A stretch of 64,000 bases of DNA, taken from assembly GCF_003790525.1 (NCBI RefSeq), contig NZ_CP033635.1; one strand, 5' to 3'. This DNA comes from Escherichia coli (lineage in GTDB: Bacteria; Pseudomonadota; Gammaproteobacteria; Enterobacterales; Enterobacteriaceae). This document shows, piece after piece, positions 63,387 through 64,000 of this stretch (the first letter of the stretch is position 1; the number at the start of each line of letters is the position of its first letter). The position numbers and the translations under genes are program-made. The notes under the pieces are model-generated. The model was not told where the DNA came from and did no database searches. It saw only the letters and a program-made list of their open reading frames with translations.

Positions 63387-64000
63387 ATGAACAGGACCAG
63401 TCTCCATTATTGTCGCCGCTCAGTACTTTCCTTATGGATATCTGCCTTGATATATGCCCCGCCCGGGATGGCGGCCTTCACTCCTGATGTTATTGGTGTG
63501 GTAAACGATGAGACTGTAGATGGCAGCCAAAAAGTAGATGAACGAGGTACAACAAATAACACTCATATTATCAACCATGGCCAGCAGAATGTTTATGGTG
63601 GGATATCTAATGAAAGTCTTATTGAATCTGGTGGATATCAAGATATAGGACGTCATAACAATTATGTGGGGCAGGCTAATAATACAACCATTAACGGGGG
63701 CAGACAGACAATTCATGACGGGGGTATTTCCACAGGTACAATAATCGAGAGTGGCAATCAGGACGTTTATACAGGTGGTATCAGCAATGGAACGACAATT
63801 AAGGGGGGTAATTCACACATAAGTGGGGGGACTGCGAATGGAACAATCATTGATGGTGGCAGCCAACGAGTAACAACTCAGGGGCATGTCGACAGTACAA
63901 CGATAAATAAGTCTGGCTCTCAGGACGTAGTACAAGGAAGTCTGGCAACGAACACAACCATAAATGGTGGTCGACAGTATGTTGAACAGAGCACAGTAGA
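63387..64000 (+). CDS. ypjA: AIDA-I/Ag43-type autotransporter adhesin, N-terminal part (YpjA-like; continues past the window end)
   Basis: ATG with GAGGA Shine-Dalgarno, signal-like N-terminus, then repeated about 19-residue units (GGxQxVxxGGISNGTxI...) typical of beta-helical passenger domains; no stop within the window. Confidence 0.65.
   Translation, partial: MNRTSLHYCRRSVLSLWISALIYAPPGMAAFTPDVIGVVNDETVDGSQKVDERGTTNNTHIINHGQQNVYGGISNESLIESGGYQDIGRHNNYVGQANNTTINGGRQTIHDGGISTGTIIESGNQDVYTGGISNGTTIKGGNSHISGGTANGTIIDGGSQRVTTQGHVDSTTINKSGSQDVVQGSLATNTTINGGRQYVEQSTV

What the first reader, a model, noticed from the sequence alone, without database searches (positions are those of the whole stretch)
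63387..64000. Autotransporter adhesin passenger domain with imperfect 19-residue repeats
Tandem units such as GGISNESLIESGGYQDIGRH, GGISTGTIIESGNQDVYTGGISNGTTIKGGNSHISGGTANGTIIDGG are typical of AIDA-I/Ag43/YpjA-type beta-helix passengers. Such genes are often phase-variable or pseudogenised and contribute to biofilm formation and adhesion; whether this copy is intact cannot be judged from the window.
Basis: partly seen in the sequence, partly recalled or inferred. Interest (0 to 1): 0.3.

Follow-up and report, generated by a model that had tools for sequence, protein, structure and literature searches.

The report
Start of E. coli ypjA adhesin gene
The last 614 bases of the window are the start of ypjA (also called ehaD), a well-known E. 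coli autotransporter adhesin gene.

Summary
Window 63387-64000 (+) is an open frame of 204 codons that runs off the window end. It encodes a 29-residue signal peptide followed by about 8 imperfect repeat units. The units are spaced 16-21 residues apart, most often 18 rather than 19, and the periodicity exceeds every shuffle control. The last 20 kb of the window matches E. coli SMS-3-5 and related genomes, apart from one base in an A-run. In those genomes the frame continues as an intact 1522-aa gene annotated "adhesin-like autotransporter YpjA/EhaD". That gene has 10 AIDA repeat domains, a pertactin-type autochaperone domain, a Pro-rich linker and a C-terminal autotransporter beta-barrel. The protein is 95% identical to K-12 YpjA and has the same number of repeats. 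The only length differences are one 2-residue indel and the Pro-Asp/Pro-Lys linker. I found no sequence hallmark of phase variation. Across the species the gene is often lost or truncated: at least 80% of it is present in 2440 of 5426 complete genomes. The part inside the window, the outermost tip of the passenger, evolves 3-5 times faster at the protein level than the rest of the gene. This is an already known gene and of low interest.

The parts
63387..64000 (+). First 204 codons of ypjA/ehaD. The gene runs on beyond the window, to 4569 nt / 1522 aa in matching genomes.
   Evidence: Identical to SMS-3-5 ypjA.
63387..63473 (+). Sec signal peptide, 29 residues (MNRTSLHYCRRSVLSLWISALIYAPPGMA, then AF). 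It is a short classical type, not the extended autotransporter type.
   Evidence: Read directly from the sequence. A 29-aa YpjA signal peptide by SignalP 6.0 is reported in PMC13101318. No extended signal peptide domain appears among the Pfam hits.
63546..63998 (+). About 8 imperfect beta-helix rung repeats (residues 54-204) with consensus G-x-A-x-x-T-x-I-x-G-G-x-Q-x-V-x-x-G. This is the membrane-distal tip of the passenger.
   Evidence: An AF2 model of residues 30-340 is all-beta, and its best structural match is TibA 4q1q (TM 0.67/0.75).
63374..63378 (+). Shine-Dalgarno-like GAGGA, 8 nt before the ATG.
   Evidence: Read directly from the sequence.
63187..63386 (+). Highly conserved 200-nt leader or promoter region of ypjA. 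It contains an annotated 39-aa ORF at 63203-63322.
   Evidence: 100% identical to K-12 and O157, and 97.5% to CE2050, while the adjacent coding region is 86-93% identical. A copy at about 93% identity lies upstream of the ycgH remnant. No sigma-70 consensus match on the + strand.

Best explanation
The segment is the 5' end of ypjA (ehaD), a classical type Va monomeric autotransporter adhesin of the AIDA-I/Ag43/TibA structural class. The pathway below is inferred from the domain architecture and from established knowledge of type Va secretion. The 29-residue signal peptide sends the 1522-aa precursor through Sec. The C-terminal domain (about residues 1261-1522) is inserted into the outer membrane by BAM as a 12-stranded barrel, with the preceding helix in its pore. 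The passenger (about 30-1240) is threaded out C-terminus first. The pertactin-type autochaperone domain (1055-1177) folds first and templates the stacking of the roughly 18-residue strand-loop-strand rungs into a long right-handed beta-helix. The Pro-Asp/Pro-Lys stretch (1179-1236) acts as a spacer. The part inside the window is made first but exported and folded last, and it forms the tip furthest from the cell. Published work reports adhesion and biofilm formation when YpjA/EhaD is expressed. The elevated amino-acid replacement rate of the tip fits an exposed surface that makes contact or is seen by the immune system.
For: Identity and integrity:
- The window tail is essentially identical to SMS-3-5.
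- The annotated ypjA is 4569 nt with no stop codon.
- It is also intact in strains 2D, M172-1, CM2 and CUVET17-1418.

Domains:
- Pfam gives AIDA x10 (E 5e-139), Pertactin 1055-1177 (E 5e-45) and Autotransporter 1261-1500 (E 1e-45).
- NCBIfam gives TIGR01414 barrel at 330.9 bits and TIGR04415 strand-loop-strand repeat at 237.6 bits.

Structural relatives:
- Solved homologs are Ag43, TibA and AIDA-I-family passengers, the BrkA and Vag8 barrels, and pertactin.
- The predicted fold matches TibA and Ag43 beta-helices.

Orthology and synteny:
- 95% identity to K-12 YpjA over the full length.
- The locus order ileY-ypjCB-pinH-ypjA-ssrA matches K-12.

Function, from the literature:
- PMC3796261 (citing Roux 2005), PMC9289746, PMC4076661 and PMC12547504.

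Tip evolution:
- dN/dS is 0.46-1.01 for residues 30-204, against 0.13-0.19 for 331-1050, in all 6 pairs of 4 alleles.
Against: - The window stops at codon 204, so integrity in the exact source genome is inferred from near-identical genomes. The window differs from all of them by one base in an A-run at 61181-61185, so the source is not exactly any one of them.
- No expression evidence was obtained here. No + strand sigma-70-like promoter was found upstream.
- My recollection is that the primary study found the gene silent in laboratory culture, but I could not read that paper.
- The ligand, and whether the passenger is cleaved or self-associates, are unknown. PMC9289746 states that the mechanism and structure are unpublished.
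- The AF2 model is single-sequence with mean pLDDT 63.7.
Confidence: 0.93

Rival explanations
1. In the window's own genome the gene is a pseudogene: truncated, interrupted by an IS element or frameshifted downstream of base 64000. On this reading the 204 codons are a dead N-terminal remnant.
For: ypjA decays often across the species. Only 2440 of 5426 genomes hold at least 80% of the gene, while 3025 hold part of the first 614 nt. Examples include an IS3 insertion, a 5' deletion, and remnants limited to the first 432 or 1236 nt. The window carries a private 1-base change in the neighbouring ypjCB pseudogene.
Against: All five genomes examined that are identical over the 1601 nt have the full, unflagged 4569-nt gene, and four of them encode the identical protein WP_024210541.1. 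The frame inside the window is intact with a good start context.
Confidence: 0.05
2. It is an Ag43/Cah or AIDA-I/TibA ortholog. That would make it a self-associating, Dam/OxyR phase-variable or heptosylated autotransporter, rather than YpjA.
For: Ag43, TibA and an AIDA-I-family adhesin are the best solved homologs. The heptosylation-target repeat model TIGR04415 matches 13 times. The review PMC9289746 places YpjA in the same phylogenetic group.
Against: NCBIfam equivalog scores are 346.9 and 271.2 bits against cut-offs of 1200. Identity to TibA is only about 33%. There is one GATC in 63000-63386 rather than a cluster. No glycosyltransferase gene lies next to it; the neighbours are a pinH remnant, a 39-aa ORF and ssrA. 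It is 95% identical to, and syntenic with, K-12 ypjA.
Confidence: 0.02
3. The apparent repeats are only a compositional bias (Gly, Thr, Asn and Ile richness) with no real periodic structure.
For: No DNA-level tandem repeat is detected in the window part. Unit lengths vary from 16 to 23 residues.
Against: Composition-preserving shuffles never reach the observed lag-18 signal, z 5.9 against a maximum of 3.9. Curated repeat models match above their cut-offs. The sequence is homologous to solved beta-helices.
Confidence: 0.003

Closest known systems
E. coli K-12 YpjA (b2647) / EHEC O157:H7 EhaD
   Same: Same gene. It is 95% identical over the full length, with the same domain order, the same chromosomal neighbourhood (ileY, ypjCB, pinH remnant) and the same number of repeat units. 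RefSeq annotates it under that name.
   Different: It is 1522 aa, against 1526 (K-12) and 1528 (O157). The length differences are one 2-residue indel near residue 326 and the (PD/PK)n linker. Of the 175 mature residues encoded in the window, 23 differ from K-12. In K-12 the CP4-57 prophage separates ypjA from ssrA, whereas here ypjA ends 160 nt from ssrA.
[quoted passage not shown]
   Same: A right-handed beta-helix passenger built of rungs of about 19 residues, AIDA-type repeats, a pertactin-like autochaperone and a type Va barrel. These are the best solved homologs.
   Different: Only about 21-33% identical, and far below the ortholog cut-offs. The passenger is much longer, at about 1200 residues. 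There is no adjacent heptosyltransferase and no GATC/OxyR-type switch signature. Self-association has not been shown for YpjA (PMC9289746).
ycgH autotransporter pseudogene remnant (between ymgJ and minE)
   Same: It shares the ~200-nt upstream leader at about 93% identity, including the 39-aa ORF, and the last 345 nt of the beta-domain at 94-97% identity.
   Different: The whole passenger and most of the barrel are deleted. It is annotated as incomplete.

Membership tests
Classical (type Va) autotransporter | N-terminal Sec signal peptide | tested here: met
   The first 29 residues have a basic n-region (RR), a hydrophobic core and an A-x-A-like site (GMA, then AF). SignalP 6.0 gives 29 aa for YpjA in PMC13101318. 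No signal-peptide predictor was run here.
Classical (type Va) autotransporter | C-terminal 12-stranded beta-barrel translocator (PF03797 / TIGR01414) | tested here: met
   The barrel lies outside the window. It was tested on the continuation in SMS-3-5. PF03797 covers residues 1261-1500 at 156.6 bits (cut-off 26). TIGR01414 scores 330.9 bits (cut-off 16). The region is homologous to the BrkA and Vag8 barrels. For the window's own genome this is inferred.
Classical (type Va) autotransporter | Single polypeptide with the passenger between signal peptide and barrel, and no separate TpsB or trimeric short anchor | tested here: met
   One uninterrupted 1522-codon frame. The barrel is about 260 residues, the monomeric type.
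AIDA-I-type beta-helical adhesin passenger | Tandem imperfect repeats of about 19 residues matching PF16168 / TIGR04415 | tested here: met
   PF16168 scores 452.9 bits in 10 stretches on the full protein and 41.7 bits on the window part alone. TIGR04415 scores 237.6 bits in 13 stretches. The measured period is 16-21 with a mode of 18.
AIDA-I-type beta-helical adhesin passenger | Right-handed parallel beta-helix fold | tested here: met
   Sequence homology to solved Ag43, TibA and AIDA-I-family helices at E 1e-14 to 1e-32. The AF2 model (pLDDT 63.7, pTM 0.63) superposes on TibA 4q1q with TM 0.67/0.75. Model confidence is only moderate.
AIDA-I-type beta-helical adhesin passenger | Autochaperone (pertactin-like) domain at the passenger C-terminus | tested here: met
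   PF03212 covers residues 1055-1177 at 152.7 bits (cut-off 22). The region is homologous to pertactin 1dab. An EhaD autochaperone cluster is reported in PMC5767081.
YpjA/EhaD orthologous group | High full-length identity to K-12 b2647 and conserved synteny | tested here: met
   1443 of 1526 residues identical. The ileY-ypjCB-pinH-ypjA order is shared.
Ag43/Cah family (NF033177) and AIDA-I (NF033176) equivalogs | Score at or above the curated equivalog cut-off of 1200 bits | tested here: not met
   346.9 and 271.2 bits.
Phase-variable autotransporter (Ag43 type or simple-sequence-repeat type) | A cluster of GATC sites in the regulatory region overlapping an OxyR site, or a long homopolymer or short repeat tract in the promoter or 5' coding region | tested here: not met
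   There is one GATC, at 63028, about 360 nt upstream. The longest runs are 6 nt, and no run of 7 or more occurs anywhere in the gene. This is a sequence signature only, and switching was not assayed.
Glycosylated SAAT (AIDA-I/Aah, TibA/TibC) | Cognate heptosyltransferase gene adjacent to the adhesin gene | tested here: not met
   The annotated neighbours within 8 kb include no glycosyltransferase next to ypjA. An unlinked enzyme was not searched for.
Functional adhesin / biofilm factor | Promotes adhesion or biofilm formation when expressed | not testable with these tools
   Literature only: PMC3796261 (citing Roux 2005), PMC9289746, PMC4076661 and PMC12547504.

The most novel reading that the evidence does not exclude
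The first ~300 mature residues of YpjA, the tip encoded in the window, may be a diversifying allelic cassette that sets binding or antigenic specificity. They exist in discrete allele classes at 86-100% DNA identity. They sit behind an almost invariant 200-nt leader, which is also kept upstream of the dead paralog ycgH and could be a shared cis-regulatory element that keeps these adhesins silent or conditionally expressed.
Probability: 0.2. Interest if true: 0.3.

Novelty: already known. Interest (0 to 1): 0.08.

Why it matters
It matters little beyond correct annotation. ypjA/ehaD is a catalogued accessory adhesin used in E. coli adhesiome typing and as a surface-display scaffold. What this check adds:
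- This allele is intact in the matching genomes.
- It has the same repeat number as K-12.
- It shows no phase-variation signature.
- The window holds the fastest-evolving part of the protein. That is relevant to anyone using ypjA presence or alleles as an epidemiological marker, or the N-terminus as a display fusion site.

Tried and rejected
- My first translation was one base out of frame and gave stop codons. The correct start is 63387.
- A regex-based cut of the repeat units was unreliable. I replaced it with a unit HMM.
- Tandem Repeats Finder found no DNA repeats in the window part. It found only the (PDPK)n linker.
- Rfam at permissive thresholds found no RNA family in the leader. It found only the tRNA at 60181.
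- The promoter scan found no + strand sigma-70 match upstream of ypjA.
- The primary paper on YpjA function (Roux et al. 2005) is not in the library, so the functional statements rest on reviews that cite it.
- A sigma-S SELEX peak listed upstream of ypjA in PMC5493296 could not be mapped with confidence, because the coordinate version is unclear. I did not use it.
- The PIRT-Seq nested ORF 'in-ypjA' lies outside the window.
- I looked for the window's exact source strain. No genome examined has the A5 run at 61181.
- I did not use the large protein-database searches, because the identification was already unambiguous.

Full report
**Observation**

On the + strand an ATG at 63387 opens a frame that stays open to the last base of the window (204 codons). 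It is preceded by GAGGA 8 nt upstream. My first attempt was one base out of frame.

The first 29 residues (MNRTSLHYCRRSVLSLWISALIYAPPGMA) look like a classical Sec signal peptide. A 29-residue signal peptide is what SignalP 6.0 gives for K-12 YpjA according to PMC13101318.

From residue 54 onward the sequence is a series of imperfect units of the form G-x-A-x-x-T-x-I-x-G-G-x-Q-x-V-x-x-G.

- BLOSUM autocorrelation of residues 31-204 peaks at lag 18 (z 5.9) and lag 35 (z 5.4). The largest z over all lags in 500 composition-preserving shuffles was 3.9.
- In the whole passenger, lags 18 and 19 give z 9.1 and 7.1. The beta-barrel part serves as an internal control and shows no such peak.
- A unit HMM places units at residues 54, 95, 113, 131, 148, 169, 185 and 203, with start-to-start spacing of 16-21 and a mode of 18.

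The one correction is that the period is about 18 rather than a strict 19. The repetition exists only at the protein level, because Tandem Repeats Finder sees nothing in this part of the DNA.

**What it is**

The last 1.6 kb and the last 20 kb of the window match E. coli SMS-3-5 (NC_010498.1) and about two dozen other complete genomes, apart from a single base. In SMS-3-5 the frame continues as a 4569-nt gene without stops. It is annotated "adhesin-like autotransporter YpjA/EhaD" and ends 160 nt from ssrA.

Four further genomes identical over the 1601 nt (2D, M172-1, CM2, CUVET17-1418) also carry the unflagged 4569-nt gene. Three of them encode the same protein as SMS-3-5.

The domain evidence on the full protein is:

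| Model | Position or count | Score |
|---|---|---|
| Pfam AIDA (PF16168) | 10 stretches | E 5e-139 |
| Pfam Pertactin (PF03212) | 1055-1177 | E 5e-45 |
| Pfam Autotransporter beta-domain (PF03797) | 1261-1500 | E 1e-45 |
| NCBIfam TIGR01414 barrel | 1081-1522 | 330.9 bits |
| NCBIfam TIGR04415 strand-loop-strand repeat | 13 stretches | 237.6 bits |

A Pro-Asp/Pro-Lys stretch lies at 1179-1236.

Solved homologs are Ag43, TibA and an AIDA-I-family adhesin for the passenger, pertactin for the autochaperone region, and BrkA and Vag8 for the barrel. The 204 residues of the window alone hit Ag43, TibA and AIDA-I-family structures at E 1e-14 to 1e-17.

A single-sequence AlphaFold2 model of residues 30-340 has only moderate confidence (pLDDT 63.7, pTM 0.63). 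It is all-beta, and its best structural match is the TibA beta-helix 4q1q (TM 0.67/0.75, rmsd 3.7 Å), followed by the Ag43 structures.

That criterion is therefore not met in any of the matching genomes.

**Comparison with K-12 and other alleles**

The protein is 95% identical to K-12 YpjA (1443 of 1526 residues). It sits in the same place on the chromosome: ileY, ypjCB, pinH remnant, ypjA. The difference is that K-12 has the CP4-57 prophage between ypjA and ssrA.

Four intact alleles (SMS-3-5, K-12, O157:H7, CE2050) are 1522-1528 residues long. They differ in length only by a 2-residue indel near residue 326 and in the (PD/PK)n linker. That linker is the only DNA tandem repeat in the gene, with a period of 12 nt. 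The number of beta-helix units is therefore the same as in K-12.

**How it most likely works**

The architecture is that of a classical type Va autotransporter. The steps below are inferred from the domains and from established knowledge of this secretion pathway.

1. The signal peptide directs export through Sec.
2. BAM inserts the C-terminal barrel into the outer membrane.
3. The passenger emerges C-terminus first.
4. The pertactin-type autochaperone folds first and templates the stacking of the roughly 18-residue rungs into a long beta-helix.

Autochaperone domains are a prevalent feature of beta-helical passengers, and EhaD has its own cluster in PMC5767081. The window encodes the part that is exported last and lies furthest from the cell.

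Reviews report that YpjA/EhaD promotes adhesion and biofilm formation when expressed: PMC3796261 (citing Roux 2005), PMC9289746, PMC4076661 and PMC12547504. PMC9289746 also states that its mechanism and structure are unpublished. I could not read the primary paper.

**Membership**

It meets every tested defining feature of a type Va autotransporter with an AIDA-type passenger, and of the YpjA/EhaD orthologous group.

It is not an Ag43/Cah or AIDA-I ortholog. It scores 346.9 and 271.2 bits against equivalog cut-offs of 1200.

I looked for the sequence signatures:

- There is a single GATC, about 360 nt upstream, rather than a cluster.
- The longest homopolymers are 6 nt, in both the leader and the 5' coding region.
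- No run of 7 or more occurs anywhere in the gene.

No glycosyltransferase gene is adjacent, unlike aah-aidA or tibC-tibA.

**Population**

The claim "often pseudogenised" holds across the species.

- At least 80% of the gene is present in 2440 of 5426 complete genomes. This agrees with the 44.8% carriage that PMC12350097 reports for an ORF nested in ypjA.
- The first 614 nt are found in 3025 genomes.
- Decayed forms seen include an IS3 insertion, 5' deletions, and remnants of the first 432 or 1236 nt.
- Genomes with only an 8% match carry the paralogous ycgH remnant next to minE, not ypjA.

**An extra observation on the window part**

Across all six pairs of the four alleles, dN/dS varies by region as follows:

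| Region | dN/dS |
|---|---|
| Residues 30-204 (window part) | 0.46-1.01 |
| Central passenger (331-1050) | 0.13-0.19 |
| Autochaperone (1051-1178) | 0.05-0.10 |
| Barrel (1241-1522) | 0.10-0.29 |

At DNA level the 614 nt fall mostly in the 80-95% identity bands. The 200 nt immediately upstream, by contrast, are 97.5-100% identical among the same alleles.

This pattern is typical of exposed adhesin tips. It is a minor refinement and not a new kind of feature. Pairwise counts cannot separate positive selection from relaxed constraint or recombination.

**Caveat**

The window ends at codon 204. It also differs from every genome examined by one base (A5 instead of A6 at 61181-61185, in the ypjCB pseudogene). 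Integrity of ypjA in the exact source genome is therefore inferred, though strongly, and not shown.

**Verdict**

The gene is already known and annotated, this allele is intact in matching genomes, and nothing about it is unusual. Interest is low.

Noticed in passing
window 61181-61185: The window has an A5 run where SMS-3-5, 2D, CM2 and all the best 20-kb matches have A6. This adds a frameshift to the ypjCB gene (DUF5507/DUF5508), which already carries internal stops in this lineage. It could be a strain-private mutation or a homopolymer sequencing error. ypjCB is intact in CE2050 and O157.
   Followed up: partly
window 63187-63386 (ORF 63203-63322): The ~200 nt before the ypjA start are 97.5-100% identical among alleles whose adjacent coding sequence is only 86-93% identical. 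They contain a 39-aa ORF annotated as hypothetical protein WP_001120794.1, identical in SMS-3-5, CE2050 and O157. It has no Pfam, NCBIfam or Rfam match. All five differences from the ycgH-linked copy are non-synonymous, so the conservation is probably of the DNA or RNA rather than of a protein.
   Followed up: partly
L003 5700-6345 (strain WCHEC020032, between ymgJ and minE): The ycgH autotransporter remnant keeps a ~93% identical copy of the ypjA leader and a 94-97% identical copy of the last 345 nt of ypjA, with everything in between deleted. It is present in nearly all genomes, including those that lack ypjA.
   Followed up: partly
window 62782-63048: An ORF fragment matches the Resolvase N-terminal domain (PF00239, E 4.8e-9). 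This is the pinH serine-recombinase remnant, annotated as incomplete in all the genomes examined.
   Followed up: yes
L001 10338-10595, minus strand (outside the window, would be about window 64737-64994): An antisense 85-aa ORF inside ypjA, reported as CDS87 / AS-ypjA by PIRT-Seq (PMC12350097 supplement), is still open in SMS-3-5 with four amino-acid changes.
   Followed up: partly
L001 13556-14079 versus L002 1942-23972: In the SMS-3-5-type locus ypjA ends 160 nt from ssrA (tmRNA). In K-12 the 22-kb CP4-57 cryptic prophage lies between them.
   Followed up: no
L001 12549-12618: A 12-nt tandem repeat encodes the (PDPK)n linker. It is the only DNA repeat in the gene and the site of allele length differences (1522-1528 aa). 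Synonymous divergence is locally high (dS 0.35).
   Followed up: partly
window 60181-60256: A tRNA with anticodon CAT is called tRNA-Met by ARAGORN but annotated as ileY, tRNA-Ile(CAU), in K-12 and RefSeq. A weak antisense Rfam hit (Plastid-ycf2, below its gathering score) on the same bases is a chance match.
   Followed up: yes
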